Assembly: GCA_041659945.1 (NCBI GenBank)
Contig: JBAZXH010000002.1
Span: 127,415 to 191,414, forward strand
Origin: Candidatus Pacearchaeota archaeon
Lineage (GTDB): Archaea > Nanobdellota > Nanobdellia > Pacearchaeales > GW2011-AR1
Direction: 5' to 3'
Length of the DNA stretch: 64,000 nt
Under the pieces are notes generated by a model. The model did not search any database. It was given only the letters and a program-made list of their open reading frames with translations, and was not told the DNA's origin. Position numbers and translations under genes: made by a program. Positions 3,303 through 23,267 of this stretch are shown piece after piece. The stretch's first letter is position 1, and every line of letters starts with the position of its first letter.

Positions 3303-3392
3303 ACAATAACATAAAATTTTATAAGGTAAAATTTAAACTGCGAGAATTCATGGAATTCTCTGGCACTCGCTTGAAGAGGTCAAGCTCATGAA

Positions 3393-6385: not shown

Positions 6386-9300
6386 ATGAGTATACAAAAG
6401 AGGAAGAGTGGTGGTGAAATCTATGTTTCTGTATTATTTATATTAGCTTTGATGTTAGTTGTTTTATCTTTGAGTTTTGTTAGTGCTGCCAATAAACCAA
6501 TAAAAGCTTGGGATATATATATTACTCTTCAAGAAGAATCAAGTGCTAAATATCTTTCTGTAAATGGTGAGGGAACACCATTAACTGATGGAGTTAATGC
6601 AAACAGAGGCATTGTTGGCAATGAACTAGAACAGTTTTATTTAAGACCAATGTATGCTGATAACACAATTAATTATGCAAGTAGAGGGCAGTCTGTTACA
6701 AGTGGAGAATATGTTAGTTTTGTTTTTATTAAAAAAGATACTGCTTTAATGTACATAGACAGTGGTTGGATTCACGGATCTGGATTAGCAAGTCAAGATG
6801 GTGAGGGAGGTACTGTGCTAAAACTTCAAATATTTAAGGACGGTGGAAATGCTGGTGATGAAATTCTTTGTGGAGATAAAGTTTATTTTAAAGATCCTAA
6901 TGAAAATAAATACTTAGATATTGATTTTGGGCAGTCCCATAATCCGGCTCAGAGAGGTAATGGATTAAACAGATTTTATATTTATGAAGCAGATGGTGGT
7001 TGTTCAAGTACTGAAACTCCAGAAAATGGAATTAAAAGTTGGGATTTAACAGGAGAACCAATACAACATACTCTTTTTGATCAGCTTAGTACGCAGAATA
7101 ATGGAAATGGTGTTGGAAAAATGCATTCATATACTTGTAGTGTTGGATATTTGCCTGTAGGACTTACGCAAAATTATGATGGAGAATATGTTGGTGATGT
7201 TTGTTTAATTTGTGCTAAGTATAATATCGTTAATGGAAAGATTAAGATTGACACTACTGATAAAAAATATATTGGAGGTAACTGTCAGTCTGAAATAAAT
7301 CCTCTTTATTGCCCTATAAAGGGTGGTAAGCAAACAGTAATGGTTGATATTGGAGGAATGGTTGATAAAGCAGGCACAAAACCACTTACTAAATCTATAA
7401 AAGATTACGCAAGAAGCTACAAACCGTATTGTTTACCAATTAATCCAGACACTGGAGAAATTGAAGGAGAAAGAACTGGTGGAGAATGTGAAGTTGGTCA
7501 AGTAATGGTAGGGTTTACTCATGCTGATGGATTAATTTTTGAACAGCAATGCTCTGCTTGGGAATCTGTTTGGTTTGGCTCTGATAAAAAGGACCAGAAA
7601 ATTGTCGATGACAACTGTTGTTTTGATCCATGGAATGACTGTGAGGATAAATCATGTCTTTCACCTAATACTAAATGTGAAAGATGTGGTCCGTTTGGTG
7701 CTATTTGTCGTACTGGTAAGGATCATAGAGATTTTACAACTAACTCAAGAGGAGCTAGTCCAATATGCCAGGCATATGAAGTTAAATCATCTCTTTTAAG
7801 TTGTGGAAATGGTGTTTGTGATGCTAATGAAGACTGTACTTGTATAGATTGTGATAAACAAAAAGCAAAATGTTCTGAAGGACAGGTTTGTGATTATACT
7901 CAAACAAATTGTGTAGATGCAACATGTACTTGTGATTTTGCAGATTCTTGTGGAAAACCAGTTGAAGGAACTAGTTGTGCTGGAACTTGTACTTCTGCAA
8001 ATGGAGGAAAATGTTCTACCGGAACTTGTGATGCTAGTGGTGCTTGTAGTGTAGTTCCTGCTGGAACTTGTCCAAGTGGCTTAGACTCTGAATGTACAGC
8101 AGATTATGCTGGACAACCAAGACACTTTTATACAGTTGATAAAGCTGAAAGAAATAGTGATGCAAGTGGAAGATTTGTTTATGAGGGAATAGCTGGTTAT
8201 GTTTATTCAACAGAAGTTGCTGGAACAGAGAGATTATACAGACAAAAAAATAATGTTACAAAAGATCATTTTTACACAGTAACTACTTCGGGAGTTAGCA
8301 CTGCTGAAGGTCTTGGGTATGTTAATGAAACTCAAGAGGCTTATGTTTTAGCTACGACTGCACAAGTTTGTTGTGAGACTACTTTAGTAACAGATCCTCC
8401 AGTAGTTTCGTATGATTGGGTACATCTTGCTTCTGATTGTGCATTACCTGCAGATTGGGTTGGAGCAAGTAAGAAACTTGTAGATTCTAGTTTATGTTCT
8501 TCTATAGAACAGACAGTTACTCCATTATATAGATTATATAAAGGTGATAGAGGACACTTTTATACTTGGGATGTAGCTGAGAAAGATTCTGCTGTGGCAA
8601 TGGGCTATACTCCTGAAGGAAATGAGGGAAATGTTTTATTAAAACAGATTGATGGAACTGTTCCGTTATACAGGCTTTACTACCCTGGAAAAACTTGTGA
8701 TGCTGTAACTAAAAATTGTGTTTCTAATAAGTATGTAAATCCGTGTACAGTTGATGGCGAACAAACAGCTACAGAAAATTGTGATGATGGCAACTTAATT
8801 AATGATGATGCTTGTTCAAATAATTGTATTTCTAAGGCTTGTGTAGAACCTGGAAAACTTTATCAATGTCCTGACGGAAGTTGTGTTACAAATGCTGCTG
8901 ATTGTCAGCCTATAACTCCTTCTGGATGTACTCCAAATAAGGTTTGTGATTCTGGTGAAAATTGTGATTGTCCAGACTGTCACGGATATAAGGACAGCTG
9001 TAGTGGTGCTGATCAGGTTTGTAGTTTTATCAGCAAAACTTGTGTAACTTGTGAAAGTCTTGGACTAGCTTTCTCTGCTGCATCAGATGCTACAACACCC
9101 TTTTTAGGAACTTGTACATTTGATCCTAGTTATCCTAAGGTAACAATTACAAAACCAGTAAAAAGTGATGATCCTGACAATTGGGAAGAATATAAAGTTG
9201 GAGAAGAAATAACTATTGAAGCTACTATGGACAATAAAAGAAAAGATCTTATGGCTGAATGGGATTTTGGAGATAATAATAAGACTGTGATAACTAATTG

Positions 9301-9829
9301 TTTAACAACAAATGTTGGTAAATGCGCTAAGTTGTATCATACATATAGCACCAAAGGAGCTTATACAATTAAGGTAAATGTTAGTGAAATGGGTGGAGAG
9401 AAATTCGCAGTGGATCATACAAGCGTATTTGCTTATATGGTTGGACCTAATCCAATGGCAATAATAACGCAACCAAAGTTTGGAGATGTAATCCCTGATA
9501 ATAACTCTGTGAAGTTTAATGCAAGCGAAAGTTTTGTGGCTGATTGTGTTTCACCTTACACTACATGTACTGCTCCAAGCTATGAAGTTGGAACTAGTGA
9601 TAAGTTATGTTGTACTAAATTAGCAAATCCTTCAGATGCTACTGCTGGATATAAATTCCACTTTGAATGGACATTTACAGATTTTGGAACTGAAGGTGCT
9701 TCAACTCCGGTAACAATCAAAGGAACTTGGGCTGATGATTATAGTAAAGTTGTTGATTTTAGCTGGGCATTTATAACACCTGGAGTTCACACTGCAAAGC
9801 TAAGAGTAGGTTATGAGAAAATAGTTTAA
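6386..9829 (+). CDS. Giant secreted Cys-rich mosaic surface protein (signal peptide; HFYT/LYR repeats; Cys-rich repeats; PKD-like domains)
   Basis: Signal peptide ...LSLSFVSAANKP. Repeats RHFYTVDKAE...RLYRQ, DHFYTV and PLYRLY..GHFYTWD resemble DUF5648. CDDGNLINDDACSNNC resembles the Myxococcus-type Cys-rich repeat. WDFGDNNKT...YHTYSTKGAYTIKVNV is a PKD signature. No C-terminal TM. Confidence 0.8.
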   Translation: MSIQKRKSGGEIYVSVLFILALMLVVLSLSFVSAANKPIKAWDIYITLQEESSAKYLSVNGEGTPLTDGVNANRGIVGNELEQFYLRPMYADNTINYASRGQSVTSGEYVSFVFIKKDTALMYIDSGWIHGSGLASQDGEGGTVLKLQIFKDGGNAGDEILCGDKVYFKDPNENKYLDIDFGQSHNPAQRGNGLNRFYIYEADGGCSSTETPENGIKSWDLTGEPIQHTLFDQLSTQNNGNGVGKMHSYTCSVGYLPVGLTQNYDGEYVGDVCLICAKYNIVNGKIKIDTTDKKYIGGNCQSEINPLYCPIKGGKQTVMVDIGGMVDKAGTKPLTKSIKDYARSYKPYCLPINPDTGEIEGERTGGECEVGQVMVGFTHADGLIFEQQCSAWESVWFGSDKKDQKIVDDNCCFDPWNDCEDKSCLSPNTKCERCGPFGAICRTGKDHRDFTTNSRGASPICQAYEVKSSLLSCGNGVCDANEDCTCIDCDKQKAKCSEGQVCDYTQTNCVDATCTCDFADSCGKPVEGTSCAGTCTSANGGKCSTGTCDASGACSVVPAGTCPSGLDSECTADYAGQPRHFYTVDKAERNSDASGRFVYEGIAGYVYSTEVAGTERLYRQKNNVTKDHFYTVTTSGVSTAEGLGYVNETQEAYVLATTAQVCCETTLVTDPPVVSYDWVHLASDCALPADWVGASKKLVDSSLCSSIEQTVTPLYRLYKGDRGHFYTWDVAEKDSAVAMGYTPEGNEGNVLLKQIDGTVPLYRLYYPGKTCDAVTKNCVSNKYVNPCTVDGEQTATENCDDGNLINDDACSNNCISKACVEPGKLYQCPDGSCVTNAADCQPITPSGCTPNKVCDSGENCDCPDCHGYKDSCSGADQVCSFISKTCVTCESLGLAFSAASDATTPFLGTCTFDPSYPKVTITKPVKSDDPDNWEEYKVGEEITIEATMDNKRKDLMAEWDFGDNNKTVITNCLTTNVGKCAKLYHTYSTKGAYTIKVNVSEMGGEKFAVDHTSVFAYMVGPNPMAIITQPKFGDVIPDNNSVKFNASESFVADCVSPYTTCTAPSYEVGTSDKLCCTKLANPSDATAGYKFHFEWTFTDFGTEGASTPVTIKGTWADDYSKVVDFSWAFITPGVHTAKLRVGYEKIV

Positions 9830-9854: not shown

Positions 9855-10772
9855 ATGGTAACAATTAAAAAAGAGAAGATAGCATTGTTTGCATTGGTAT
9901 TTGTAATTGCTTTAATTCCTTTTGTAGTTGCTGATGTTACATGGTCAGAAGCAAATACCATGTTTCAAACTGGAAGTAATGTTATGTGTAAATTAGAACC
10001 TACAAGTTCTTTTTGGGTTTCATACGCAGTTCCTTCTATATCTGCCATGGACAGTTGTTATAATCCTCATGGCATTGGTGAAGATGGATTAAATAAAACA
10101 ACTTGTTGCCCGACTGGGTGGGATTGTAATTTAGATACAAAGCTGTGTGTTAAAGTTAATGATGAACAAGGAAATTTAACCTGTGGTAGTTATAAAACTG
10201 AAGACGCTTGTAGAATGCATAGTGGAGGAGCAAATTTACCTGAAAATATTAAAAAATATATAGAAGAAAGAAATGCTGATTATATAAGAAGACTTATTCA
10301 AAGTGTTGATTCTAGTTTTGGAAATAATGTAGCAAGATTTTGCCATGAAGACTTTCAAAAGCACTGGGAAAAGAATGGAAAGGGAATAACCTTTAAAGAA
10401 TGTGGATGTGTTTGGAATAGTACTGATTGTTTAGAGACTTTTAAGTATATTAATGAAACTTCTGGAACACCAACCACAACTGTAGTGACTTTTGAATGTC
10501 AGACAAATTCAAAAGAACTTCAAAATAATTGTGATGCTGCAGATGAGACTGATAGAATGATGACTTTGGAATGGACTGCTAAACTAGTTGATAGTAAGGG
10601 AGTAATACATGCTCCAACAGATGCTTGTAAAGATGGAATCAAAGAATTCCCTTGTCCACCAAAAATAGATAATCCTAAAAGTTTACTTCCTTTTTTTGGA
10701 ACTCTTGGATTTATATTAGCTAGTTCAATAATTATCGGAGTTTATGTCTTCTTAAGAAAAAGAAAGGATTAA
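9855..10772 (+). CDS. Cys-rich surface protein with conserved C-terminal module, LLPFF motif, TM anchor and basic tail
   Basis: Signal peptide ALIPFVVADVTW. The C-terminus is ...KSLLPFFGTLGFILASSIIIGVYVFLRKRKD. The C-terminal half aligns with the 537- and 872-aa proteins. Confidence 0.75.
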   Translation: MVTIKKEKIALFALVFVIALIPFVVADVTWSEANTMFQTGSNVMCKLEPTSSFWVSYAVPSISAMDSCYNPHGIGEDGLNKTTCCPTGWDCNLDTKLCVKVNDEQGNLTCGSYKTEDACRMHSGGANLPENIKKYIEERNADYIRRLIQSVDSSFGNNVARFCHEDFQKHWEKNGKGITFKECGCVWNSTDCLETFKYINETSGTPTTTVVTFECQTNSKELQNNCDAADETDRMMTLEWTAKLVDSKGVIHAPTDACKDGIKEFPCPPKIDNPKSLLPFFGTLGFILASSIIIGVYVFLRKRKD

Positions 10773-10789
10773 ATTGGGGTTTATGATTT

Positions 10790-12901
10790 ATGAAAAGGAA
10801 TAAAAAAACAAACTTTAAAAAAACTTTTCTATTTTCTGGAATTGTTATTATTGCTGTTTTAGTTCTTGCATCAATCTTAATTATTGATTTAACAATAAAC
10901 AAAAATAATGTAAGCATTTCTGGTAATGTTATTCAAAGTGGCACATGTGTTGCAAAAACATACTATGTAAATGCAACAACTGGAAATGATGCTAACACTG
11001 GAGAGTCTCCAGGGAAACCTTGGAAAACTTTATCTAAGCTAAGTTCAATGGATTTTTGTTCGGGAGATATAATCCTTCTTGAAAGAGGAAAAACATGGAA
11101 TGAAATTTTATTTCCTAAATATTATATCGCAGGTGCTGCACAAAGTCAAATAACTTTTGGAGCTTATGGTGCTGGTGAAAGGCCAATTGTTAGGGGTATT
11201 GTTCTTGGGGGTGTTAGTTATGTTATTGTTAAAGATATAACATGTGACTTTGGAGGAGATGGAAATTTAGAGGGAAGATGTGTTAATTTGATTTCAACAA
11301 ATAATGTAATTTTGGATAACTTAGTTGTGAAGAATTCTGTATCTGCTGGAATCTTTGTGGGTTCGGAAATTCAGGGAATGTGCCAGAATAATGTAGTTAA
11401 AAATTGTGAGGTTTATAATAGCACGGGTAATAATCCTGAAAATTTAGGTAAAGGTATTTATTTTTGGGGTAATAAAATTTGCAAGGGAAATTCAATATTA
11501 AATAATAAAATTCATAATAATGATGGAGGTGGAATTATAGTTTCAGAATCATCATTTACAAATATAACTAGCAATGAAGTGTATTTGAATGGTGCAGTAG
11601 GAATTGGTCTTGGACCTGCTTCTGTTCTGGCTGGTGGAGAAGAGGCCACATCAGATAATATTATTGAAAAAAATTTAGTGTATAGCAATGGGCAAAAATT
11701 AGATGATATTTTTGGAATTGATTTATATCGTGTTGGAAATAGAAACACTGTGAGATATAATACTGTTCATGATCAACATAATACTGCAACTGATTCAAAG
11801 ATTCTTGCAAGATATGGTGGAAGCTATAAATATGGTACTGGAGGAATAAGGCTTGATGGTAATGTTAATGAGTCCTATGCTGCTAGTGGCAATAAGGTTC
11901 ATCATAATATTATTTACAATGAGTATTCTGGGATTGATGTTATTAGTTTTAATAATACTGAAATTTATAATAATGTTATTTATAATACTACAAATAGGGC
12001 TTTTGCAATAGAATCTTTGAAAAAAGTTTCTAATACTAAGTTTAAGAATAACATAATGCAAAATCCTTCGGCTGGAATTTCTGTGCTGATGGCAAATTCT
12101 TTGTCTAATCAAATTGATTATAATATCTACTATCCATCAAAACCAAACATAAGCGGACAAGATTCTCATTCAAATGTTGTTGATGCAAAATTTGTGAGTG
12201 TTTTAATTAAAGACTTTCATTTGCAATCAAATTCTCCTGCAATAAACACGGGAGTTGACATTGGAATAATAAAAGATTTTGATGGCAATCCAATACCCTA
12301 TGGAAATACTATCCCTGATATTGGAGCTTTTGAATACCAAGGATCTTTAAGCCCTCCTAAAGGAAACTGTACAGATCTTGATAAAGATGGATATAATGTT
12401 TCTCAATCCGGCTGTGGAAGTTTGTTTGATTGCAATGATGCAAATATAAACGTAAACCCAAAAAAAGTTGAAATTTGTAATGGGATTGATGATAACTGCA
12501 ATAGTTTAATTGATGAAAATTTAGGAAACACAACTTGTGGAAGCGGAGATTGTCAAACAAATGTGCAAAATTGTGTGAATGGAAAAGTGCAGACATGTGT
12601 TGCTAAAACAATAACAACTTGGTATTATGATAGTGATAATGATGGTTATGGAATAAGCTCAAACACTAAATCACAATGTTCTCAACCTAGTGGCTATGCT
12701 TCACAAAGCGGAGATTGTAATGATGCCAATGTAGCTATAAAACCGGGAGCAACAGAAATTAAGTGCAATGGAATTGATGAAAATTGTAATGGCGTAGGTG
12801 ATGATACTCAATGTGCAAGTGGATATTCTTGTAGAAGCGGGCAATGTTGTAAAAAAGTGTGTACCTTCTGGATTTTTGGGTGTTCTTATAAATGTATTTA
12901 A
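10790..12901 (+). CDS. Secreted/N-anchored right-handed parallel beta-helix protein with C-terminal MopE-like Cys-rich repeats
   Basis: N-terminal TM. YYVNATTGNDANTGESPGKPWKTL resembles DUF1565. PbH1-like repeats are present (NNVVKNCEVYNS, IHNNDGGGIIV, NIIYNEYSGIDV). Two DxDxDGY...CNDAN..(V/I).P...E.CNGIDxNCN repeats follow. Confidence 0.8.
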   Translation: MKRNKKTNFKKTFLFSGIVIIAVLVLASILIIDLTINKNNVSISGNVIQSGTCVAKTYYVNATTGNDANTGESPGKPWKTLSKLSSMDFCSGDIILLERGKTWNEILFPKYYIAGAAQSQITFGAYGAGERPIVRGIVLGGVSYVIVKDITCDFGGDGNLEGRCVNLISTNNVILDNLVVKNSVSAGIFVGSEIQGMCQNNVVKNCEVYNSTGNNPENLGKGIYFWGNKICKGNSILNNKIHNNDGGGIIVSESSFTNITSNEVYLNGAVGIGLGPASVLAGGEEATSDNIIEKNLVYSNGQKLDDIFGIDLYRVGNRNTVRYNTVHDQHNTATDSKILARYGGSYKYGTGGIRLDGNVNESYAASGNKVHHNIIYNEYSGIDVISFNNTEIYNNVIYNTTNRAFAIESLKKVSNTKFKNNIMQNPSAGISVLMANSLSNQIDYNIYYPSKPNISGQDSHSNVVDAKFVSVLIKDFHLQSNSPAINTGVDIGIIKDFDGNPIPYGNTIPDIGAFEYQGSLSPPKGNCTDLDKDGYNVSQSGCGSLFDCNDANINVNPKKVEICNGIDDNCNSLIDENLGNTTCGSGDCQTNVQNCVNGKVQTCVAKTITTWYYDSDNDGYGISSNTKSQCSQPSGYASQSGDCNDANVAIKPGATEIKCNGIDENCNGVGDDTQCASGYSCRSGQCCKKVCTFWIFGCSYKCI

Positions 12902-12923
12902 ATGAGAGTTTCTTTGGTTTTTG

Positions 12924-14351
12924 ATGACCTATAAATTAGATAAAATATCTGAAAATATCTATGAAATAAAGGCTCACGGAGATATGAATGTACCTGTAAG
13001 GATCTATGCTTCTGAGAAATTATTAAATGATATGAAGAAAGATAACTGCTTTGAACAAATGGTAAATGTAGCTTGCTTGCCTGGAATTGTTAAACATTCA
13101 ATAGTCCTGCCTGATGCACATCAGGGTTATGGTTTTTCTATAGGAGGAGTTGGTGCTTTTGATGTTGATGATGGAATTATCAGTCCGGGAGGAGTTGGTT
13201 TTGATATTAACTGTAGTGTTCGCCTTTTGAGAACAAATTTAGAGAAAAAAGATGTTGAAAGTAGCGATAGGAAAAAGTTAGTGTCTAAAATGATTTTCAA
13301 GGCAATTCCCTCTGGAGTTGGAAAGGGATGCTCTGTTAAGATTAATAAGGAAGAAATAAAGGAGATAATGAAAAACGGTGCGGGTTGGGCTGTGGAAAAG
13401 GGTTATGGTTTTAAGGAGGATGTCGAGTTTACAGAGGAAAATGGTTGTATGAAAGATGCTGATCCATCAAAAGTTTCTGAAACTGCAATTTCAAGGGGCA
13501 TAAACCAATTGGGAAGTCTTGGTTCAGGAAATCATTTTTTAGAATTTCAGTATGTTGATGAAATTTTTGATGAAAAAATTGCTGGAGTTTTTGGTTTAAA
13601 GAAGGATCAAGTATGTATTATGATTCATTGTGGTTCTAGAGGTTTGGGACATCAGGTTGCTTCAGATTACATAAGACTCATGGAAGAAGAATATGGTTTT
13701 GAAAATTTAAAAGATAGGCAGTTGATTAATGCTCCGATTAAATCAAAATTAGGACAGGATTACTATAAAGCTATGTGCTCTGCAGCCAACTTTGCATTTT
13801 GTGATAAGCAGATAATAACTCATTTTATAAGAGAGACATTAAAAAAAGAATTTCCAAAAATTAAAGCGGAGGTTGTTTATGATATTTGCCATAATATTGC
13901 TAAATTTGAAGAACATGAGGTTGATGGAAAGAAAAGAATGCTTTGCGTACATAGAAAGGGAGCAACAAGAAGTTTAGGACCTGGAAGAAAGGAAATTCCT
14001 CAGAAATATAGATCTGTTGGTCAACCAATTATCCTTCCTGGAAGTATGGGAACTTCATCCTATGTGTTGGTAGGAACTAGTAAAGCTGAAGAATTATCTT
14101 TTGCGAGCACAGCTCACGGAGCAGGTAGAGTTATGTCAAGACATGAAACTCTTAGAACTATCAGTCCGGATGAGATAAGAAAAAAAATGTTAGATAAAAA
14201 TATTGAAGTTAATGCTGGGAGTTGGAAAGCTCTAGTTGAAGAATCTCCAGAGGCTTACAAGGATGTTGATGAGGTTGTTAGGGTAAGTCATGAAGTTGGT
14301 ATTGGAAATTTGGTTGCGAGACTTAAACCATTGATTGTAATTAAAGGTTAA
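12924..14351 (+). CDS. rtcB: RNA-splicing ligase RtcB (3'-phosphate/5'-hydroxy RNA ligase)
   Basis: Motifs DAHQGYGFSIGGV, GFDINCSVR, GSGNHFLE, HCGSRGLGHQV, HRKGATR, PGSMGTSSYV and HGAGR. ATG 12924 follows the TTG 12921 used in the ORF track. Confidence 0.95.
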   Translation: MTYKLDKISENIYEIKAHGDMNVPVRIYASEKLLNDMKKDNCFEQMVNVACLPGIVKHSIVLPDAHQGYGFSIGGVGAFDVDDGIISPGGVGFDINCSVRLLRTNLEKKDVESSDRKKLVSKMIFKAIPSGVGKGCSVKINKEEIKEIMKNGAGWAVEKGYGFKEDVEFTEENGCMKDADPSKVSETAISRGINQLGSLGSGNHFLEFQYVDEIFDEKIAGVFGLKKDQVCIMIHCGSRGLGHQVASDYIRLMEEEYGFENLKDRQLINAPIKSKLGQDYYKAMCSAANFAFCDKQIITHFIRETLKKEFPKIKAEVVYDICHNIAKFEEHEVDGKKRMLCVHRKGATRSLGPGRKEIPQKYRSVGQPIILPGSMGTSSYVLVGTSKAEELSFASTAHGAGRVMSRHETLRTISPDEIRKKMLDKNIEVNAGSWKALVEESPEAYKDVDEVVRVSHEVGIGNLVARLKPLIVIKG

Positions 14352-14429
14352 TATATAAATTAACTGTGAAAGATTTATAAATAATAAATATGTAGATTAG
14401 TTATAGTTTTATAATAAAATGGTGATGAA

Positions 14430-16043
14430 ATGAGAGGAAATGCTTATAGTTTTTTGGTTGGAGTGTTGTTGTTAATTCTAGTTGTTTCTTTATGTAATCT
14501 TGTACTTGTTAGGGGGGCCATAATTGGTAATTGCCCTGCTGGAGCTAAAATGATAACTGCTTGTCAAGATATAAATGAACCTGGATACTATTGTTTAAGT
14601 AATGATATTTGGCATGATGGAGGAGTTTATCATTCTACTTGTTTAAATATAAGCACTAGCAATGTAATAATTGATGGTCTTGGAAAAAGAATTTATAATA
14701 TAACTTATTATGGTTCTTCAACAAGTGCTATTGATCATTGTTTTGGCAGTTTTCCACAGGCTCCATATTACCTAAATCATTATGGCTGTGGGGGAAATAT
14801 GAAACTAAATAATATAACAATTAAAAATTTAGTTTTGGATGGTTTAAGCGTAAGAATAGTAAATAGTTTAAACAACTCAATAATAAGCAACAATGAAATA
14901 ATAAATGTAGTAAATATCGCGGCTATAGGCCTATCTTCTGGATCTAATGTTACAATTTCAGGAAATATTATTAAAAATCATAAAGATAATCTTTGTCATG
15001 CTACAATAAGTCTTAATGCAGGAGGTACAGAAGGAAAGATAATCAAAAATGAAATATATAACTCTAGACAGTTTTTTGGAAATTATGGACCACCTTGCTA
15101 TATCATTTCTATGTTCAATGGACTGAATGCATCAATAATTGGAAATAGAATAACTAATCTTGTTGGGGAGGGCGATGCTAGTTACAAACAAATAGCTGGA
15201 ATTGGCCTTGCAAAAAGCAATAACACAAATATTTCATACAATGATTTTTGCAATGGAGGTGTTACTTTTCAAGATTTTCAATGTATTAACATTAATGCCC
15301 CATTTAGCGGGGGATCATTTGGGACTTATGGAACTAATAATAACTTTAGTAAAGTTTCTTGTGGTTTACATATTAATTGTAAAGATAATGGTTGGCCAAT
15401 ATTGGGCGTAAATTATAACCCCTGTGTTAGTAAAACAAATTGCAATAACCGAGTCATTAAAAATTCATGTGAATCTTTGACCACTAAGGAGTGTGAGAAT
15501 TCAAGTTACTGGTCAAATGAGATAAAATCATTAATACAGGAGAATTCTTTAATTGGAAGGAATTTTTGCTTTGATAAATCTGTAACCTTAAAAGAAGAAC
15601 CTCATGACACTTTTATTGATTCTTGTGAAAGTTATATTGAATGTGGATGTAAGTTGGAAACAGATGATCAGGGTATAGAAAATTGTGTAGGGATGACCAG
15701 AAGAGTTTATGAACCTAATATTATGGGCTGTCCTGATAATCCTATTGAAGAGGAATCATGCCAAGTAGAAAGTAGTATTAGTGGAAATTGTGATAACTCA
15801 GATGTTTATGAATATACTGTTAATTGGGTAGGAACCTGGATTGGAAACCAAAGTTCACCTGACAAAGAAAATTGTCAGTCAGGTAGTAGAAATATTCCGT
15901 GCAATGAAAAAAGTTTATTGCCTTTTTTCGATGGAAAAAATCTTTTTTTAAGCCTAATATTAATTGCGGGAATTTATTTTACTTTTACAATTTGTTTAGT
16001 AATTAAAAATGAAGAAAAAAATAGAAGGATTTATAAATACTAA
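14430..16043 (+). CDS. Surface beta-helix (NosD/PbH1-like) protein with conserved Cys-rich C-terminal module, LLPFF motif, TM and basic tail
   Basis: Signal peptide; repeats NNITIKNLVLDG, ISNNEIINV, ISGNIIKNH, IIGNRITN. The C-terminus is ...EKSLLPFFDGKNLFLSLILIAGIYFTFTICLVIKNEEKNRRIYKY. GGTGAT SD at 14421-14426. Confidence 0.8.
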   Translation: MRGNAYSFLVGVLLLILVVSLCNLVLVRGAIIGNCPAGAKMITACQDINEPGYYCLSNDIWHDGGVYHSTCLNISTSNVIIDGLGKRIYNITYYGSSTSAIDHCFGSFPQAPYYLNHYGCGGNMKLNNITIKNLVLDGLSVRIVNSLNNSIISNNEIINVVNIAAIGLSSGSNVTISGNIIKNHKDNLCHATISLNAGGTEGKIIKNEIYNSRQFFGNYGPPCYIISMFNGLNASIIGNRITNLVGEGDASYKQIAGIGLAKSNNTNISYNDFCNGGVTFQDFQCININAPFSGGSFGTYGTNNNFSKVSCGLHINCKDNGWPILGVNYNPCVSKTNCNNRVIKNSCESLTTKECENSSYWSNEIKSLIQENSLIGRNFCFDKSVTLKEEPHDTFIDSCESYIECGCKLETDDQGIENCVGMTRRVYEPNIMGCPDNPIEEESCQVESSISGNCDNSDVYEYTVNWVGTWIGNQSSPDKENCQSGSRNIPCNEKSLLPFFDGKNLFLSLILIAGIYFTFTICLVIKNEEKNRRIYKY

Positions 16044-16082
16044 AATTTTAAGTATATTATTAAAAATTAAGATGGTGATATA

Positions 16083-18701
16083 ATGAAAGAGGGTTATAGA
16101 GTTTCTTTAGCATTAATGATAGTAGCTTCGTTAGTATTTTTATGTTTTGTTTTTGTGAGTGCTGCATGTACTCCTATAACAGCTTGTACAAAAATTAACT
16201 CACCTGGAAATTATTGTCTTGCTGGTAACATTGCTGATACTGTAACTACAGATTATGCATGTATCTATATTAATTCAAGTAATGTTATACTAAACGGCCA
16301 GAATTATGTAATTTTTCATAAATCTCTTCTCAAAAAGGGAGGGTTTAGTTATGCTGCAATGGGAATTGCTAATGGTAATGGCAATGGTTATGGAAAAGCT
16401 GAAATAAAAAATATTACTATTACTAATTTTGATTTGCAGAATTATACTTGGAATGCTATTGGATTATATAATGTAACAGATGCTCATGTGATAAATAATA
16501 AACTCTCATTAAGTCAAAGTGGTTCATCATCGGGCCAGGTTGGGATGGAATTAGTTTATTTAAAGAATTCGGAAGTTTCTGAGAATGAGTTGTTTATCTC
16601 AAGTTTAGGAAGCGGGAATGCGGATTATGGTTTGTATATTACTTATGGAAGTAATACTAATATTTCAAAAAATATCATAAAGAGTGATGTGCTACCAAGA
16701 GTAGTGGGTGGAATTATGATAGGACTTTCTTCTTCAAATATGATAGTTGATGGTAACACTTTAAGCTCTCTTGTGAAGAATAATCAATGGACTGGAATTT
16801 CAGTTGGCAGTAGTACAAATGTTATAGTAAAGAATAATATAATTCCTTGTGACAGCCCGGAGAACCAATTAGGTAAGGATTTTGTTTGTTCTACTTCATC
16901 AATTTCCGGTAGTGGGAATAGTTTTAATTCATCAAAGGTTACTGCCTGTGCTAGTGGATGGCCAGTATTGGGCACAGATTATACTGCTTGTAAACCCTCA
17001 GAATGTTTTGGGGCTATAATGATAACAACCTGTACAAAAATTAACTCGCCTGGAAATTATTGTCTTACTAAAGATATCACTGATACTAATACTACAAGCT
17101 ATGCATGTATTTACATTAATTCAAGTAATGTTGTACTAAACGGTCAGGGATATACAATCTTTCATAAAACTTTTTCTAAATGTGGTAGTTTCTGGTGTGA
17201 TACAATGGGGATTGCTAATGATAATGGCAATGGTTATGGAAAAGCTGAAATGAGAGGTATCACTATTACAAATTTTAATTTGCAGAATTATACTTGGAAT
17301 GCTATTGGATTATATAATGTAACAGATGCTCATGTAACAAAAAATGATATCACAGTAACAAGTGGTTCATCATCGGGCCAGGTTGGGATGGAATTAGTTT
17401 ATTTAAAGAATTCGGAAGTTTCTGAGAATGAATTATCTATTTTGGGGGAATTAGCTGGAAATGCTGCTTATGGTTTGTTTGTTTCTCATGGAATTAATAG
17501 CCTTCTTTTAGACAACAATATAAAAAACAGAATGTCATCAAAAGCAGTTGGTGGTATTTTTGTGGGACTTTCTTCTTCAAAGGTTGTAGTTGATGGTAAC
17601 ACTTTAAGCTCTCTTGTACAAAATAGTCAGTGGGCAGGAATTTCAGTTGGCGGTAGTACAAATATTACAGTAAAGAACAATGTAATTCCTTGTAATAGCC
17701 AAATTGGTAAGGATTTTGTTTGTTCTACTTCATCAATTTCCGGTAGTGGGAATAGTTTTAATTCATCAAAGGTTACTGCCTGTGCTAGTGGATGGCCAGT
17801 ATTGGGCACAGATTACAGTGATTGTGTTAATCAAAAATGTCCTCAGGGAACTATGAGGTGTAAAGATGGTACATGCCAAGCAACTTGTCCTGAAGATCCT
17901 GCTTGTACAGTTAATGGTATTTGTGATAGTGGAGAAAGTTGTAACTGTCCGGATTGTAATGGTTATAATGATGGATGTGTTGAACCATTAGTTTGTTCAT
18001 TACCAACTGAAACTTGCCAACCTTGTACAACTGGAACAACCTATAATCCTGAAACAAAGAAATGTGAAGATACTACTGGACCTCCTAGCGGTGGAGGTGG
18101 AGGAGGAAGTGGAGGAGTGAGAAGCTGTAGCTATTATACAAGCCAAGGTCAGGCTGTTTGTGAAAGCGAATCATCTTGGACTAGTGAAATAAAGTCTCTT
18201 GTTCAAGAAAATCTTTTGATTGGAAGATCTTGCTTTGAAGACTTTAAACCTGTAGCTGGAAAAACTGGATGTAAAACTAAAATACAGTGTGGTTGTAAAT
18301 ATAATACTTCAACAGGAATTTGTAAGGAAGCAAATTGGAAAGTTGATACTCCTGCAGGTTGCGATGGTGCAGGATTGCAGCCATTATGTGAAATGACTAC
18401 AGCAACTCAAGGAGATTGTGCAGCTGAGGGTGTTTATGAATATACTGTTAATTGGACAGGAACTTGGAATGGTGCTCTTGGTGATCCTCAGGAAGCATAC
18501 TGCCTTGGTGGAGAAAGATCAATAGCTTGTCCTGGAAAGACTGCAGTTCCATTCTTTAGCTTACAAAATTTAATAATTGTAATCTTGATTATAGTCATTA
18601 TCTACATTGTTTATTGGATGTTAAAACATTCAAAGAAAGGGAGACATAGTGGCGCTCTAAATCTTGCTAAGCCAAAGGCAAGGAAAAAGAAAAGAATTTA
18701 G
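16083..18701 (+). CDS. Surface protein with two tandem beta-helix modules, Cys-rich linker, Gly linker, conserved C-terminal module, VPFF motif, TM and basic tail
   Basis: Signal peptide; internally duplicated about 280-aa module; CDSGESCNCPDCNGY module; GPPSGGGGGGSGG linker. The C-terminus is ...GKTAVPFFSLQNLIIVILIIVIIYIVYWMLKHSKKGRH...KARKKKRI. GGTGAT SD at 16074-16079. Confidence 0.8.
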   Translation: MKEGYRVSLALMIVASLVFLCFVFVSAACTPITACTKINSPGNYCLAGNIADTVTTDYACIYINSSNVILNGQNYVIFHKSLLKKGGFSYAAMGIANGNGNGYGKAEIKNITITNFDLQNYTWNAIGLYNVTDAHVINNKLSLSQSGSSSGQVGMELVYLKNSEVSENELFISSLGSGNADYGLYITYGSNTNISKNIIKSDVLPRVVGGIMIGLSSSNMIVDGNTLSSLVKNNQWTGISVGSSTNVIVKNNIIPCDSPENQLGKDFVCSTSSISGSGNSFNSSKVTACASGWPVLGTDYTACKPSECFGAIMITTCTKINSPGNYCLTKDITDTNTTSYACIYINSSNVVLNGQGYTIFHKTFSKCGSFWCDTMGIANDNGNGYGKAEMRGITITNFNLQNYTWNAIGLYNVTDAHVTKNDITVTSGSSSGQVGMELVYLKNSEVSENELSILGELAGNAAYGLFVSHGINSLLLDNNIKNRMSSKAVGGIFVGLSSSKVVVDGNTLSSLVQNSQWAGISVGGSTNITVKNNVIPCNSQIGKDFVCSTSSISGSGNSFNSSKVTACASGWPVLGTDYSDCVNQKCPQGTMRCKDGTCQATCPEDPACTVNGICDSGESCNCPDCNGYNDGCVEPLVCSLPTETCQPCTTGTTYNPETKKCEDTTGPPSGGGGGGSGGVRSCSYYTSQGQAVCESESSWTSEIKSLVQENLLIGRSCFEDFKPVAGKTGCKTKIQCGCKYNTSTGICKEANWKVDTPAGCDGAGLQPLCEMTTATQGDCAAEGVYEYTVNWTGTWNGALGDPQEAYCLGGERSIACPGKTAVPFFSLQNLIIVILIIVIIYIVYWMLKHSKKGRHSGALNLAKPKARKKKRI
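16185..17822 (+). repeat. Intragenic tandem duplication, period about 846 nt (two copies)
   Basis: TGTACAAAAATTAACTC occurs at 16185 and 17031. Long identical runs remain, e.g. the two antisense ORFs 16784-16975 and 17627-17809 share an identical 35-aa (105-nt) stretch. Confidence 0.85.
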
Positions 18702-18855: not shown

Positions 18856-21588
18856 ATGAAAAAATGTTTCTTTAAATTAGTTGTTGTTATGCTTTTTTTC
18901 ATGGTTTTTATGAATCTAATTAGTGCTGATTTTTTACTTGGAAATAAAAGTTATGAAATAAAAGATAAGTATTATATTAATGATGAGATGAGTGGTTGGA
19001 TAAACCTTAGTCTTGTTGATCAAAATTATTCTTCAATGATTTATGATAACCTTGGCAATGGATATACTTTAAAATATCTTTTAGAGAGATTAAAATTAAC
19101 CAATTATTCTTGCACTCCAAATGATTGTATGTCAAATTATGTTTCTAAGGGTATTGGTCTTGAATCAGAAAAGATAAGTTTAGTTAACAACCAGGATACC
19201 ATTAGGGGAATAAGTGTAAAAGGAAAAAGTATTGAGTTTAAAAGAGCGAAGCTATTGGTTTCAAGCAATAGTGGAAGTTCTTGTGACCCTCAGCTGAGCA
19301 TAGATATTGGAAATGATAATAGTTCTGACTGGGGAAACAGTAAATTTATCAATGAACATTGTGGACAGGAGTTAAAGTCCAGTTGTGATGTTGGATATTT
19401 TCCTCTTGGTTTGGTAATTGCTGAACAACCTTATTGTGAGAATATAACCTTGCCAAAAGCTCCGGCCTTTGAAATTAGAGCTATGATTAAAAGAGATGAT
19501 AGCGGAGTTTCTCCGGGTTTTTATGATGGATTATTAAAGGCTTGGGTATATAATAGTAAGGGGGAGCTTGTTGGTAACTGCAATCTGACAAAACCTACAA
19601 ATAGTTGGGGAGTAAGTTCGTGTTTAGTAAAATATGTTTCTAAAGAAAATGTAGGACATTATGTTTGTGTTTCTGGAAGAGAGGGCAGTAAACTAACGGG
19701 GTACTTAATTCAGGGTAAAGATGCGTCGGTTTTTTGTGGGTTTATGGGAGATCCGGCACAGACAAGAGAGTTTACAAAGGATTATAATATTAGGGCCGTG
19801 GCAAAGAAATTTGATACAATCGGAAGTATAAGAATAAATGACAGTACATTTAATGAACAAAACCTTGTAACACTAAGTACATATCTTAATAGTTATATAG
19901 CTAATAAATACCGAGGGGATTGTTCAAAGGAATGCGTTATACCGATTAAATTCTCGGGTATAAATCAGGAGATTGTTTTGGGTAATATAAGCTTTGAATA
20001 TCTGTCTGATGGGGGCATAATATCCTCAAATAGACTATATAACATTGGTAAATCTGAAGTCTTGGTAAAATCTCCCTTTTTCATAATTAATTTAGATAGT
20101 TTAAACTTTTCTATACCAACAAGAGAGGGAAATAGTACTTGGCAGTTTTATGTTGGAGATAAAAAAGCAATAGAAAAGGAAATTAAAGTTAGTAGGGAAA
20201 GTGGGTTGAGAATTTCACAAATTTACCCTACAGATGCAACGGTTTTAACAGATGTTAATTTTTTGGCTATAATTGCCATGGATATTAACCTTAGTGAATC
20301 AGGCATTTACCTTAATTGGGACTATGGTGATGGTAAAATGCAAAGAACTGATGATGTAAGAAGTAGCCATACCTATGAGGCTGTTGGAAATTATACTATC
20401 TCAATAAAAATAATCAATGGAAGCGAAGAGGTTTCGGAGTATTCTACACAAATTAAGATAAATTCTGCAAGAGATCTTGTTGGTAGTATTTTAAGTGATT
20501 ATAAATCTAAATTAAGCTCAATAAGATCTGAAATAAGTATATTACCAAGTGAGTATCAGGATAAAATAAAAGAGAAGTTAAAAATTGATGATATTGAGGC
20601 AATAATTAAAGATGTTGAGGGATCATATGGGCAGTTATCTACAACTGTTGGAACAAAGGACCAGGAGTACACTAGCTTAATGAATCAGTTAAAATCAATA
20701 GACATGCCTCAATTAATCAAATCTGACAGTAAAATTAATAGTATCTTTGTTAATGATGTAAATAATATTGATCTGGATAAGTTGGTTACATTATTTGATG
20801 ATGAGAGTTATAGTGAGGGCCAAGATAGCGAATATAAATGGGAAATTTATAAGTGGTCATTGGAAAATATTCAAACTATGATGAACTATGAATCTTTATC
20901 GGTTTACTATAAAGATCGATATGAAACTCTTTTAAGTAAGTTTAGTATAACTTTCACACCAAAAACAACAATAGACTACCCAGTTTATTTAATAATTAAT
21001 CAAGATATGGAAAATCTTGTATTGGGTGAATCTTATAATGTTTCTGAAGATTTAGGATATATTGGAGTTCTTTTAGACTTGAGTAGTACAAAGACAGTAA
21101 GTTTTGCAACTTTTGAAAAAATTTCTCCATATGAACTACCTATTTTTATAAGTCCAACATTGAGTGTAGTTAATCTTGATGATGAAGGTGGTGGTGGAAC
21201 GATAAATGAAGCAAGTCCAAGGGGCCTCTTAGTTGGCCTGGGTATTGGAGTTCTCTTATTTTTTGCCATAACTGCTTACTTTTTCATGCAAAAATGGTAT
21301 AAAACTAACTATGAAAAAAGTTTGTTTAAAGATAAGAATCAATTGTTTAATCTAATGAATTTTGTATCAAATGCAAAAAGACAGAATATGCCTGAAAAAG
21401 AAATAAGAAAAAGATTAGGGTATCAAAAATGGAAAGCTGAGCAGGTGAATTATGCACTTAAAAAATTTTCAAAACCTAATGTTCATATGAAACCTGGACA
21501 AACCAAACCTAATGCAAAAAAACCTTTATTCTCACTTTTCAAAAAAAAGAGTCTTCCTGAGACGAAAGAGAGAAGAATAGCTTATTAA
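18856..21588 (+). CDS. Large type I membrane surface protein (signal peptide, PKD-like domain, C-proximal TM, about 110-aa basic cytoplasmic tail)
   Basis: Signal peptide FMNLISADF. WDYGDGKMQRTDDVRSSHTYEAVGNYTISIKIIN is a PKD signature. The TM is LLVGLGIGVLLFFAITAYFFM, followed by a K-rich tail. Confidence 0.8.
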   Translation: MKKCFFKLVVVMLFFMVFMNLISADFLLGNKSYEIKDKYYINDEMSGWINLSLVDQNYSSMIYDNLGNGYTLKYLLERLKLTNYSCTPNDCMSNYVSKGIGLESEKISLVNNQDTIRGISVKGKSIEFKRAKLLVSSNSGSSCDPQLSIDIGNDNSSDWGNSKFINEHCGQELKSSCDVGYFPLGLVIAEQPYCENITLPKAPAFEIRAMIKRDDSGVSPGFYDGLLKAWVYNSKGELVGNCNLTKPTNSWGVSSCLVKYVSKENVGHYVCVSGREGSKLTGYLIQGKDASVFCGFMGDPAQTREFTKDYNIRAVAKKFDTIGSIRINDSTFNEQNLVTLSTYLNSYIANKYRGDCSKECVIPIKFSGINQEIVLGNISFEYLSDGGIISSNRLYNIGKSEVLVKSPFFIINLDSLNFSIPTREGNSTWQFYVGDKKAIEKEIKVSRESGLRISQIYPTDATVLTDVNFLAIIAMDINLSESGIYLNWDYGDGKMQRTDDVRSSHTYEAVGNYTISIKIINGSEEVSEYSTQIKINSARDLVGSILSDYKSKLSSIRSEISILPSEYQDKIKEKLKIDDIEAIIKDVEGSYGQLSTTVGTKDQEYTSLMNQLKSIDMPQLIKSDSKINSIFVNDVNNIDLDKLVTLFDDESYSEGQDSEYKWEIYKWSLENIQTMMNYESLSVYYKDRYETLLSKFSITFTPKTTIDYPVYLIINQDMENLVLGESYNVSEDLGYIGVLLDLSSTKTVSFATFEKISPYELPIFISPTLSVVNLDDEGGGGTINEASPRGLLVGLGIGVLLFFAITAYFFMQKWYKTNYEKSLFKDKNQLFNLMNFVSNAKRQNMPEKEIRKRLGYQKWKAEQVNYALKKFSKPNVHMKPGQTKPNAKKPLFSLFKKKSLPETKERRIAY

Positions 21589-22309: not shown

Positions 22310-22370
22310 ATAATAAAGTTTAAACTTTAAAAAGCATAAAAACATATAGTAAATGTAAAAAAGAGAAAAA

Positions 22371-22763: not shown

Positions 22764-22765
22764 TA

Positions 22766-23161: not shown

Positions 23162-23235
23162 AAAAGTATAATTTCTATGTTATTTTTAAAGATTTATATT
23201 ATTTTGTTGATAGATTGAGTTGTTTTATTACAAGA

Positions 23236-23247
23236 AAATATATAAAG
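23236..23247 (+). promoter_or_regulatory. TATA box for the Zn-ribbon gene (leaderless spacing)
   Basis: AAATATATAAAG is centred about 26 nt upstream of ATG 23268. Confidence 0.45.
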
Positions 23248-23267
23248 TCCGCGATTGTTAGGAGATT

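What the first reader, a model, noticed from the sequence alone, without database searches (positions are those of the whole stretch)
10182..18701. Shared Cys-rich C-terminal module ending in [LV]PFF + TM helix + basic tail in three surface proteins: candidate new sorting/anchoring signal
The last about 190 aa of the 305-aa (nt 10182-10772), 537-aa (15468-16043) and 872-aa (18126-18701) proteins align with conserved Cys spacing, although their N-terminal parts differ. Shared landmarks are C..x..C near the start, (E/N)IK(S/K)(L/Y)(I/V)(Q/E)E, (E/Q)CGC(K/V), (G/N)(D/N)C, (Y/L)E(Y/W)T...W and C..G...I(A/P)C. The module then ends SLLPFF, SLLPFF or TAVPFF (PFF codons at 10689-10697, 15921-15929 and 18549-18557). 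A hydrophobic helix of about 20 residues and a Lys/Arg tail follow (RKRKD; KNEEKNRRIYKY; KHSKKGRH...KARKKKRI). A short motif + TM + basic cluster at the extreme C-terminus is the tripartite layout of processed sorting signals (LPXTG/sortase, PEP-CTERM/exosortase, PGF-CTERM/archaeosortase A). I do not recognise a PFF-type signal or this Cys-rich module as a named family. No sortase- or archaeosortase-like gene lies in this window.
Basis: partly seen in the sequence, partly recalled or inferred. Interest (0 to 1): 0.7.

Follow-up and report, generated by a model that had tools for sequence, protein, structure and literature searches.

The report
Conserved membrane-anchor domain of Pacearchaeota surface proteins
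Three surface proteins of this tiny symbiotic-type archaeon end in the same cysteine-rich "pedestal" plus an unusually conserved membrane helix; this turns out to be a large, so far unnamed protein family of Woese-/Pacearchaeota that sits in a fixed operon with another big membrane protein, and there is no evidence yet that it is a cleaved sorting signal.

Summary
The last ~190 aa of the 305-, 537- and 872-aa proteins are homologous (E 1e-29 and 7e-5), and the coordinates are correct.

The module is not confined to three paralogues. An exhaustive profile search found 621 clusters (50% identity). In all 150 best hits the module lies at the extreme C-terminus, in proteins of 94-1319 aa.

The signature keeps a fixed register: CxxGx5CPx4[LVI]PFFx3Nx7IxxIY, then a Lys/Arg tail. 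FF and Y are about 98-99% conserved.

It matches no Pfam or NCBIfam model, no PDB sequence and no PDB or viral fold. AlphaFold gives three short helices, a five-strand sheet and a TM helix (pLDDT 82).

In GTDB genomes it occurs only in MAGs labelled Woese-, Pace- or Nanoarchaeota. The gene lies directly upstream of a conserved ~880-aa PKD membrane protein (window 18856-21588), within archease-RtcB-[module gene(s)]-[880-aa protein]-GTPase-OapB-like.

This lineage has a curated archaeosortase, pacearchaeosortase (NF033505). Its curated target (NF033506) has a different tail. The enzyme is near a module gene in only 1 of 77 and 1 of 34 loci.

Best reading: a permanent, partner-specific membrane anchor. 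A new "PFF-CTERM" sorting signal remains possible (about 0.3).

The parts
9855..10772 (+). 305-aa short-form family member: signal peptide, small Cys-rich head, then the C-terminal module (10182-10772; PFF codons 10689-10697; TM about 10698-10754; tail RKRKD)
   Evidence: P0001, module aa 110-300
14430..16043 (+). 537-aa member: signal peptide, one beta-helix-like unit, then the module (15468-16043; C(-8)...IY signature 15900-15977; PFF 15921-15929; TM about 15948-16004)
   Evidence: (P0003)
16083..18701 (+). 872-aa member: signal peptide, two tandem beta-helix units (aa 28-300 and 312-590), Cys-rich linker, then the module (18126-18701; signature 18528-18605; PFF 18549-18557; TM about 18567-18623). 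It lies immediately upstream of the conserved partner gene.
   Evidence: Beta_helix; P0002; AF2 model
18856..21588 (+). 'BIG910': a conserved ~880-aa type I membrane protein with signal peptide, Cys-containing ectodomain with one PKD domain, a conserved TM ending ...Y(I/L)(I/V)(L/M)QEWYK, and a ~100-aa conserved cytoplasmic tail. It is the operon partner of the module gene.
   Evidence: (47 of 53 homologues have a module gene upstream on the same strand, 41 within 341 nt; median gap over all 47 is 70 nt)
6386..9829 (+). 1147-aa secreted Cys-rich protein (DUF5648, PKD) with no C-terminal anchor, encoded 25 nt upstream of the 305-aa member
10790..12901 (+). 703-aa beta-helix/MopE-repeat protein with an N-terminal TM only. 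It belongs to the same surface-protein cluster but lacks the module.
5815..6270 (+). Archease; upstream boundary of the conserved syntenic slot
12921..14351 (+). RtcB RNA ligase; a conserved syntenic neighbour directly upstream of the module gene in many genomes
21674..23741 (+). GTPase (21674-22309), PF09846 OapB-like protein (22371-22763) and Zn-ribbon protein (23268-23741); the conserved downstream flank of the BIG910 gene
27992..28948 (-). Presenilin/SPP-type intramembrane aspartyl protease (PSH). It is the only intramembrane protease in the window and is not specifically linked to the module.
   Evidence: also in L083/L110

Best explanation
The three tails are copies of a lineage-specific, previously unnamed C-terminal anchoring domain of Woese-/Pacearchaeota surface proteins.

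The proteins are exported through an N-terminal signal peptide. The ~130-aa module, with about 12 conserved cysteines (probably six disulfides), folds outside the cell as a compact pedestal sitting directly on the membrane. Only six residues separate its last Cys from LPFF.

The helix that follows is a stop-transfer anchor that stays in the membrane, with the Lys/Arg tail in the cytoplasm. The near-invariant FF at the outer interface, Asn five residues in, and Tyr 17 residues (about 25 A) further at the inner interface are not a cleavage site. I read them as a specific intramembrane and interfacial recognition surface.

Through that surface, variable heads (beta-helix, lectin-like, PKD) would be docked to a common partner. 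The most likely partner is the co-operonic ~880-aa membrane protein (window 18856-21588), and/or other copies of the module.

Shown: homology, distribution, register conservation, predicted fold, synteny. Inferred: topology, disulfides, persistence of the helix, the partner.
For: - Family size and position: 621 clusters at 50% identity. In all 150 best hits no more than 12 residues follow the module match.
- Register: C(-8) 130/146, P(-1) 112/146, FF 146/146 by anchoring (98-99% of all 150), N(+5) 99/146, I(+13) 112/146, Y(+17) 143/146.
- The tail never occurs without the Cys-rich module in about 1 Mb of archaeal loci.
- AF2 model at pLDDT 81.6: helices, a 5-strand sheet and TM helix 149-175, with TM pLDDT 95.
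- An N-terminal hydrophobic segment is present in 107 of 132 complete proteins, and tails are 67% K/R.
- Synteny: the gene order archease-RtcB-module gene(s)-BIG910-GTPase-OapB-like-Zn ribbon-CCA enzyme recurs across the 77 GTDB blocks. 47 of 53 BIG910 genes have a module gene upstream on the same strand within 3 kb, 41 of them within 341 nt; the median gap over all 47 is 70 nt.
- BIG910 has an equally conserved TM with an invariant Tyr about 4-5 residues from the cytoplasmic boundary, the same depth as the module's Tyr.
- Heads vary even for the copy next to BIG910, from 159 to 1214 aa. They include Beta_helix, Laminin_G_3, PKD and DUF4215.
- No sortase linkage was found.
Against: - No direct evidence exists that the helix is retained. 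The layout (Pro-aromatic motif at the helix start, ~20 hydrophobic residues, short basic tail with a median of 8 aa) is exactly that of archaeosortase/exosortase signals.
- The module-BIG910 adjacency lies inside a block of vertically conserved housekeeping synteny. It may therefore reflect inheritance rather than function.
- A test for a single conserved helix face was not significant (conservation moment p=0.14).
- The window genome probably carries a pacearchaeosortase about 17 kb beyond the right end, judged from synteny. An enzyme is therefore not excluded.
Confidence: 0.45

Rival explanations
1. A new archaeosortase-type sorting signal ('PFF-CTERM'). After export, a polytopic transpeptidase (the lineage's pacearchaeosortase or an unidentified enzyme) recognises LPFF plus the helix, removes helix and tail, and attaches the new C-terminus to a membrane lipid, as ArtA does with PGF-CTERM.
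For: - Tripartite layout at the extreme C-terminus in all 150 best hits.
- The Pro-aromatic motif resembles PGF/PEF.
- Several copies occur per genome: 3 here and at least 6 in UBA9966.
- Heads are diverse.
- An exosortase/archaeosortase-family enzyme exists in this lineage, with conserved Cys/Arg/His, and is abundant (551 metagenome matches).
- In one genome it lies 1.7 kb from a module gene (L014/L121).
- The synteny of the window's right flank (FKBP) suggests this genome has the enzyme too.
Against: - The curated target of pacearchaeosortase is the adjacent NF033506 protein, whose tail is different and has no Pro.
- Only 1 of 34 enzyme loci of at least 8 kb, and 1 of 77 module loci, show proximity.
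- The tail is never found apart from the 130-aa module.
- The strongest constraints are FF and a Tyr deep in the helix near the cytoplasmic side, not the Pro (77%).
- The folded domain ends only 6 residues before the motif, with no flexible linker.
- No NCBIfam CTERM model matches.
Confidence: 0.3
2. An ordinary inherited type I membrane anchor. The conservation reflects only common descent of a stalk-plus-helix unit and generic membrane biophysics: a Pro N-cap and aromatic belts at both interfaces about 25 A apart. There is no specific partner and no processing.
For: - The F0/F1 to Y(+17) spacing fits a bilayer-spanning helix.
- The helical-face test was not significant.
- The synteny with BIG910 is embedded in conserved housekeeping synteny.
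- C-terminal TM anchors on pectin-lyase-like and lectin-like surface proteins are described in cultivated DPANN (bioRxiv 10.1101/2023.10.27.564410).
Against: - FF and Y are 98-99% invariant at about 25-30% overall identity, and I(+13) is fixed at about 77% (FF/Y). That puts FF and Y on a par with, or above, the disulfide cysteines. A buried Asn is kept at 68%. Generic anchors, and the PACE-CTERM helices in the same lineage, tolerate far more variation.
- Immediate co-directional adjacency to BIG910 with a median 70-nt gap persists while heads and copy number vary.
Confidence: 0.2

Closest known systems
PGF-CTERM / PEF-CTERM archaeosortase sorting signals (ArtA, ArtC; Haft et al. 2012; reviewed in PMC6098224)
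   Same: Both sit at the extreme C-terminus. Both have a Pro-x-Phe-type motif at the start of a ~20-residue helix, a short basic tail, several carriers per genome and Sec-exported surface proteins.
   Different: No HMM match. The PFF tail is always fused to a 130-aa disulfide-rich domain rather than a Thr/Ser-rich linker. It has an invariant Tyr and a conserved Asn inside the helix. No cognate enzyme is identified. The known systems are described only in a subset of Euryarchaeota.
Pacearchaeosortase (NCBIfam NF033505) with its PACE-CTERM protein (NF033506, 'putative S-layer protein')
   Same: Same lineage. Both are surface proteins with a C-terminal helix plus basic tail, and both helices carry an Asn in the first turns.
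   Different: A different protein family (no NF033506 hit) and a different tail, G[ED]NWYLWxIGxLNVIL..VAVRIARR, with no Pro-Phe-Phe and no Tyr. The PACE protein is always directly upstream of the enzyme. Module genes are not, with one exception.
SlaB-type and other C-terminally TM-anchored stalk proteins of archaeal envelopes (Sulfolobales SlaB; Nanobdella MJ1_0707 and pectin-lyase-like proteins, bioRxiv 10.1101/2023.10.27.564410)
   Same: Type I topology, a membrane-proximal stalk, a retained helix, beta-helix or lectin-like heads, and an operon with a second large envelope protein.
   Different: No sequence or fold similarity was detected. The module is much smaller, Cys-rich and far more conserved in the helix. 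BIG910 is itself membrane-anchored, unlike SlaA.
LPXTG cell-wall anchor (TIGR01167)
   Same: Tripartite C-terminal layout.
   Different: Only a sub-threshold hit to the helix part (E=0.37, 11.6 bits against a cutoff of 15.9). There is no LPXTG motif, no sortase A-F family gene and no peptidoglycan.

Membership tests
Archaeosortase/exosortase-type C-terminal sorting signal (PGF-, PEF-, PEP-CTERM class) | Tripartite signal at the extreme C-terminus: short signature motif, hydrophobic helix, basic cluster | tested here: met
   In all 150 best hits no more than 12 residues follow the module match. The pattern is [LVI]PFF, about 20 hydrophobic residues, then a K/R tail with a median of 8 aa.
Archaeosortase/exosortase-type C-terminal sorting signal (PGF-, PEF-, PEP-CTERM class) | Match to a curated CTERM model | tested here: not met
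   NCBIfam scans of the three tails at E<=10 and of 47 modules at E<=0.1 gave no CTERM model. The only related hit is LPXTG_anchor at E=0.37, below its cutoff. Pfam gave none.
Archaeosortase/exosortase-type C-terminal sorting signal (PGF-, PEF-, PEP-CTERM class) | Cognate sortase encoded in every genome that has the signal (phylogenetic profile) | not testable with these tools
   Whole genomes cannot be read. There is none in the 64-kb window or its 10-kb flanks. One module-bearing genome has a pacearchaeosortase.
Archaeosortase/exosortase-type C-terminal sorting signal (PGF-, PEF-, PEP-CTERM class) | Signal is portable: found on otherwise unrelated proteins without another shared domain | tested here: not met
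   The tail pattern was matched 80 times in the GTDB locus ORFs, each time in an ORF with the Cys-rich module, plus the window and L121/L122 copies. The only module-less matches were 3 in bacterial loci and 1 short window ORF, all chance.
Archaeosortase/exosortase-type C-terminal sorting signal (PGF-, PEF-, PEP-CTERM class) | C-terminal cleavage and lipid attachment of the mature protein | not testable with these tools
   Needs proteomics or biochemistry.
Pacearchaeosortase system (NF033505 enzyme + NF033506 PACE-CTERM protein) | Target protein matches NF033506 and carries the G[ED]NWYLW...LNVIL tail | tested here: not met
   The module protein of L121 and the window proteins give no NF033506 hit. 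The tails differ.
Pacearchaeosortase system (NF033505 enzyme + NF033506 PACE-CTERM protein) | Target gene adjacent to the enzyme gene | tested here: not met
   The enzyme is absent from 76 of 77 module loci and from the window. A module is present in 1 of 34 enzyme loci of at least 8 kb.
Generic type I (signal peptide + C-terminal stop-transfer) membrane-anchored surface protein | N-terminal signal peptide, one C-terminal helix, positive-inside tail | tested here: met
   All three window proteins. 107 of 132 complete family members have an N-terminal hydrophobic segment, and tails are 67% K/R. These come from hydropathy heuristics, not a dedicated predictor.
Any named protein domain or solved fold for the Cys-rich module | Significant sequence or structure match | tested here: not met
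   Pfam and NCBIfam: none. PDB sequence profile: best E=0.043. Foldseek PDB best E=0.42, BFVD best E=0.12.

The most novel reading that the evidence does not exclude
LPFF-helix-Lys/Arg is a genuine new class of archaeosortase-type sorting signal ('PFF-CTERM'). It would be used by Woese-/Pacearchaeota to lipid-anchor a repertoire of host-interaction proteins, processed by pacearchaeosortase (giving that enzyme a second, multi-member substrate class) or by an undiscovered enzyme. BIG910 would act as the assembly platform.
Probability: 0.27. Interest if true: 0.75.

Novelty: new variant of a known kind. Interest (0 to 1): 0.55.

Why it matters
Woese- and Pacearchaeota are abundant, uncultivated, probably host-dependent archaea whose cell surface is essentially uncharacterised.

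This family gives a sequence handle (one HMM, or the signature C-x2-G-x5-C-P-x4-LPFF-x3-N-x7-I-x2-IY) that picks out the membrane-anchored surface repertoire of these organisms. That repertoire includes beta-helix and lectin-like heads that are candidates for host attachment.

The fixed operon with a second unannotated, highly conserved membrane protein defines a two-component envelope module at a constant chromosomal position.

If the tail proves to be processed, it would extend archaeosortase-type sorting to DPANN with a new motif. If it is retained, it is a rare case of a single-pass helix conserved almost to the residue across a whole class, which points to a specific intramembrane partner.

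Tried and rejected
- Word-indexed homologue searches with the three modules and with 47 modules returned essentially only self. The exhaustive HMM search was needed.
I replaced it with a degenerate DNA pattern for C-x6-PFF-x3-N-x7-I-x2-[IV]Y. 42 of 119 matches were chance hits (bacteria, Micrarchaeota, Aenigmatarchaeota) and were removed by HMM.
- Presenilin-type protease PSH as a dedicated processing enzyme: it lies 9 kb away in the window and recurs in a few loci, but it belongs to the conserved backbone synteny and is not specifically linked.
- Pacearchaeosortase as partner: tested by neighbourhood analysis in both directions, with negative results except for one genome.
- One-sided helix conservation: moment at 100 degrees = 4.88, permutation p = 0.14, not significant.
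- Walking the contig: two look-ups were lost to wrong start codons. The 10-kb flanks show no further module gene and no sortase.
- Cluster look-ups for accession-based genome matching gave no usable labels.
- Literature: no paper mentions LPFF with archaea, pacearchaeosortase or PACE-CTERM.


Full report
**1. The observation**

The three ORFs are as described: 9855-10772 (305 aa), 14430-16043 (537 aa) and 16083-18701 (872 aa), all on the + strand. Each has an N-terminal hydrophobic signal-like segment and one C-terminal hydrophobic helix followed by a Lys/Arg tail.

Their last ~190 residues align with 26 invariant columns, including 10 Cys, PFF, and an Ile and a Tyr inside the helix. Pairwise BLASTP gives E=1e-29 (537 vs 872, 41% identity) and E=7e-5 (305 vs 872, 27%). 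A profile of the three finds only these three ORFs among all six-frame ORFs of the window. The coordinates of the PFF codons are right.

One detail needs correcting. The N-terminal parts of the 537- and 872-aa proteins are homologous: they share a beta-helix unit (E=2e-11), which is duplicated in tandem in the 872-aa protein (72% identity). Only the 305-aa protein has a different head.

**2. It is a large family, not three paralogues**

An exhaustive HMMER search of 1.84 billion cluster representatives gave 621 proteins at E<=1e-3 and 78 at E<=1e-10. The best 150 are listed, with lengths of 94-1319 aa. In all 150 the match ends within 12 residues of the C-terminus.

I anchored the tails on FF, which worked for 146 of 150. 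This shows an ungapped register:
- C(-17)-x2-G(-14)-x5-C(-8, 130/146)-P(-7)-x4-[LVI](-2)-P(-1, 112/146)-F-F
- x3-N(+5, 99/146)-x7-I(+13, 112/146)-x2-I(+16)-Y(+17, 143/146)
- three or four more hydrophobic residues, then a K/R run

The commonest forms are LPFF (81), VPFF (18) and IPFF (9). Upstream, about 12 Cys and a WTAxW motif are conserved. Tails have a median of 8 residues and are 67% K/R. 107 of 132 complete proteins have an N-terminal hydrophobic segment.

Heads are diverse and mostly unannotated. They include Beta_helix, Laminin_G_3, PKD and DUF4215.

**3. It is unnamed**

- Pfam and NCBIfam give nothing for the window proteins, for the isolated tails at E<=10, or for 47 diverse modules. 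The only sorting-type hit is LPXTG_anchor at E=0.37, below its cutoff.
- A profile search of PDB sequences gives E=0.043 at best.
- AlphaFold2 with a 47-sequence alignment gives a confident model: mean pLDDT 81.6, three short helices, a five-stranded sheet and a TM helix at 149-175.
- Foldseek finds no similar fold in the PDB (best E=0.42) or in BFVD (best E=0.12).
- No paper in the library mentions LPFF with archaea.

**4. Distribution**

Names attached to cluster members are Pacearchaeota, Nanoarchaeia and 'uncultured archaeon'. The window itself is from a Candidatus Pacearchaeota MAG.

A degenerate DNA pattern for the signature was scanned over one genome per GTDB species. HMM confirmation left 77 blocks, labelled as follows:

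| Label | Blocks |
|---|---|
| Woesearchaeota | 31 |
| Pacearchaeota | 23 |
| Nanoarchaeota | 14 |
| Nanoarchaeia | 4 |
| unspecified archaeon | 3 |
| small, probably mis-binned contigs | 2 |

All 42 other pattern matches (38 bacterial, 1 Micrarchaeota, 3 Aenigmatarchaeota) lack the module and are chance hits. Copy number ranges from one to at least six per genome (UBA9966: L013, L059, L083, L106). Some long proteins carry extra internal partial copies of the Cys-rich part.

**5. Genomic context: the main new result**

I clustered all ORFs of the 77 blocks. This shows a conserved array:

T2SSF - pilin-like - small TM protein - archease - RtcB - module gene(s) - a ~880-aa protein homologous to window 18856-21588 ('BIG910') - GTPase - PF09846 OapB-like - Zn-ribbon protein - CCA-adding enzyme.

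This is the order found in the window.

- BIG910 homologues are present in 53 of the 77 blocks, although the blocks are arbitrary 8-kb cuts.
- 47 of the 53 have a module gene upstream on the same strand within 3 kb, 41 of them within 341 nt. The median gap over all 47 is 70 nt.
- The head of that upstream copy varies from 159 to 1214 aa. The constant element next to BIG910 is therefore the module.

BIG910 is a type I membrane protein. It has:
- a conserved ectodomain with invariant Cys and one PKD domain
- a conserved helix ending ...Y(I/L)(I/V)(L/M)QEWYK
- a conserved ~100-aa cytoplasmic tail

It has no other Pfam, NCBIfam or PDB relative.

**6. Is there a sortase?**

The window has none. Its polytopic ORFs are two T2SSF, a presenilin-type PSH protease (27992-28948), a PMT_2 glycosyltransferase, a Wzx-like flippase, a DedA/VTT protein and one unannotated 16-TM protein. 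There is also an archaeal signal peptidase I at 32823-33506.

Screening multi-TM neighbours in the 77 blocks turned up one hit. L014:5113-5646 matches NCBIfam NF033505 'pacearchaeosortase' at E=8e-42, and it also matches the exosortase/archaeosortase signature TIGR04178. The lineage therefore has its own curated archaeosortase, with invariant Cys, Arg and His.

Its neighbourhood is different, however:

SepF - ... - a 530-620-aa protein - enzyme, flanked by an Sm_multidrug_ex protein, two small proteins and an S_layer_C protein.

The protein directly upstream matches NF033506 'PACE-CTERM-PROT, putative S-layer protein' at E down to 1e-118. Its tail in 33 loci is ...G[ED]NWYLWxIGxLNVILxxIIIVAVRIARR. 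It has no Pro-Phe-Phe and no Tyr at the module's position.

- Of 34 enzyme loci of at least 8 kb, only the L014 contig has a module gene within 10 kb.
- None of the other 76 module blocks, nor the window with its 10-kb flanks, has the enzyme.

In L014/L121 the proximity arises because a variant arrangement (BIG910 - GTPase - OapB - short module protein) abuts the enzyme locus.

The window's right flank runs into FKBP. In enzyme loci FKBP lies about 9 kb upstream of the enzyme. This genome may therefore encode the enzyme about 17 kb beyond the window. I could not reach that region.

**7. Interpretation**

Even so, several points argue against a cleaved, portable signal:
- The tail is never separated from the 130-aa domain.
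- The folded domain ends six residues before LPFF, with no linker.
- The most invariant positions are FF and a Tyr near the cytoplasmic end of the helix, rather than the Pro.
- The only lineage-specific sortase has a different curated target and no linkage to the module.

The positive linkage is to BIG910, whose own helix is conserved in a comparable way.

I therefore favour a retained anchor whose pedestal and helix form a specific docking unit, with BIG910 and/or with itself. It would display variable heads of the kinds proposed for host interaction in cultivated DPANN: pectin-lyase-like and lectin-like proteins with C-terminal helices (bioRxiv 10.1101/2023.10.27.564410).

The F/F to Y spacing (17 residues, about 25 A) fits residues sitting at the two membrane interfaces. 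A buried Asn is a classical driver of helix association; this rests on established knowledge and was not tested here. My test for a single conserved helix face was not significant (p=0.14), so the partner idea rests mainly on synteny.

Probabilities:
- partner-specific retained anchor: 0.45
- new sorting signal: 0.30
- plain inherited anchor: 0.20

**8. Novelty and verdict**

The family, its fold, its signature and the module-BIG910 operon are absent from Pfam, NCBIfam, the PDB and the searched literature. The kind of thing, a C-terminal anchoring or sorting domain of archaeal surface proteins, is known. I rate it a new variant of a known kind, with interest 0.55. It would rise to about 0.75 if processing were shown.

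Noticed in passing
window 18856-21588 (+): A ~880-aa type I membrane protein family ('BIG910'), conserved across Woese-/Pacearchaeota and unannotated except for one PKD domain. Its TM helix is near-invariant (...Y..QEWYK) and it has a conserved ~100-aa cytoplasmic tail (YExYLF...GWxSEQxxYxxKYxGKRTGM).
   Followed up: partly
window 16164-16982 and 17016-17852 (+): Recent tandem duplication of a ~275-aa beta-helix unit inside the 872-aa protein (72% identity, E=5e-129). The 537-aa protein carries one diverged copy (28% identity).
   Followed up: yes
window 21674-23741 (+): A GTPase, a PF09846 (OapB-like) protein and a Zn-ribbon protein form a triad, followed by the CCA-adding enzyme (24152-25471). 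This block is conserved downstream of BIG910 in many genomes. From memory, it resembles the origin-associated oapABC cluster of haloarchaea; I did not check the literature for this.
   Followed up: partly
window 27992-28948 (-): Presenilin/SPP-type intramembrane aspartyl protease (PF06550 E=5e-11; NF041679 E=5e-13, below its cutoff). Homologues lie within 5 kb of module genes in L083 and L110. This probably reflects backbone synteny.
   Followed up: partly
window 240-5478 (+): Type IV pilus-like cluster: a T2SSE ATPase, two T2SSF platform proteins, and two small proteins with N-terminal TM helices (one pilin-like by a class III signal-peptide-like N-terminus in a homologue; no family match). 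It is conserved upstream of archease-RtcB in many of the related loci.
   Followed up: partly
L121 8109-10537; L123, L126, L129 equivalents: The pacearchaeosortase (NF033505) plus PACE-CTERM protein (NF033506) pair has a fixed neighbourhood: SepF upstream, and Sm_multidrug_ex, two small N-terminal-TM proteins and an S_layer_C protein downstream. The PACE tail consensus is G[ED]NWYLWxIGxLNVIL..VAVRIARR.
   Followed up: yes
window 53231-55114 (+): A 627-aa protein with about 16 predicted TM helices and no Pfam or NCBIfam match. It lies next to a Wzx-like flippase and four glycosyltransferases, so it may be a polymerase or GT-C-like enzyme.
   Followed up: no
L010 1425-5042 (-), L044, L045, L081 and others: Long family members carry additional internal, partial copies of the Cys-rich part of the module (profile positions ~15-130) without a helix. 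The pedestal fold is therefore also used as an internal repeat.
   Followed up: no
window 6386-9829 and 10790-12901 (+): Two large secreted Cys-rich proteins (DUF5648/PKD; beta-helix plus MopE repeats) lie interleaved with the anchored proteins but lack any C-terminal anchor. The 1147-aa gene ends 25 nt before the 305-aa anchored protein, which suggests a secreted-plus-anchor pair.
   Followed up: no
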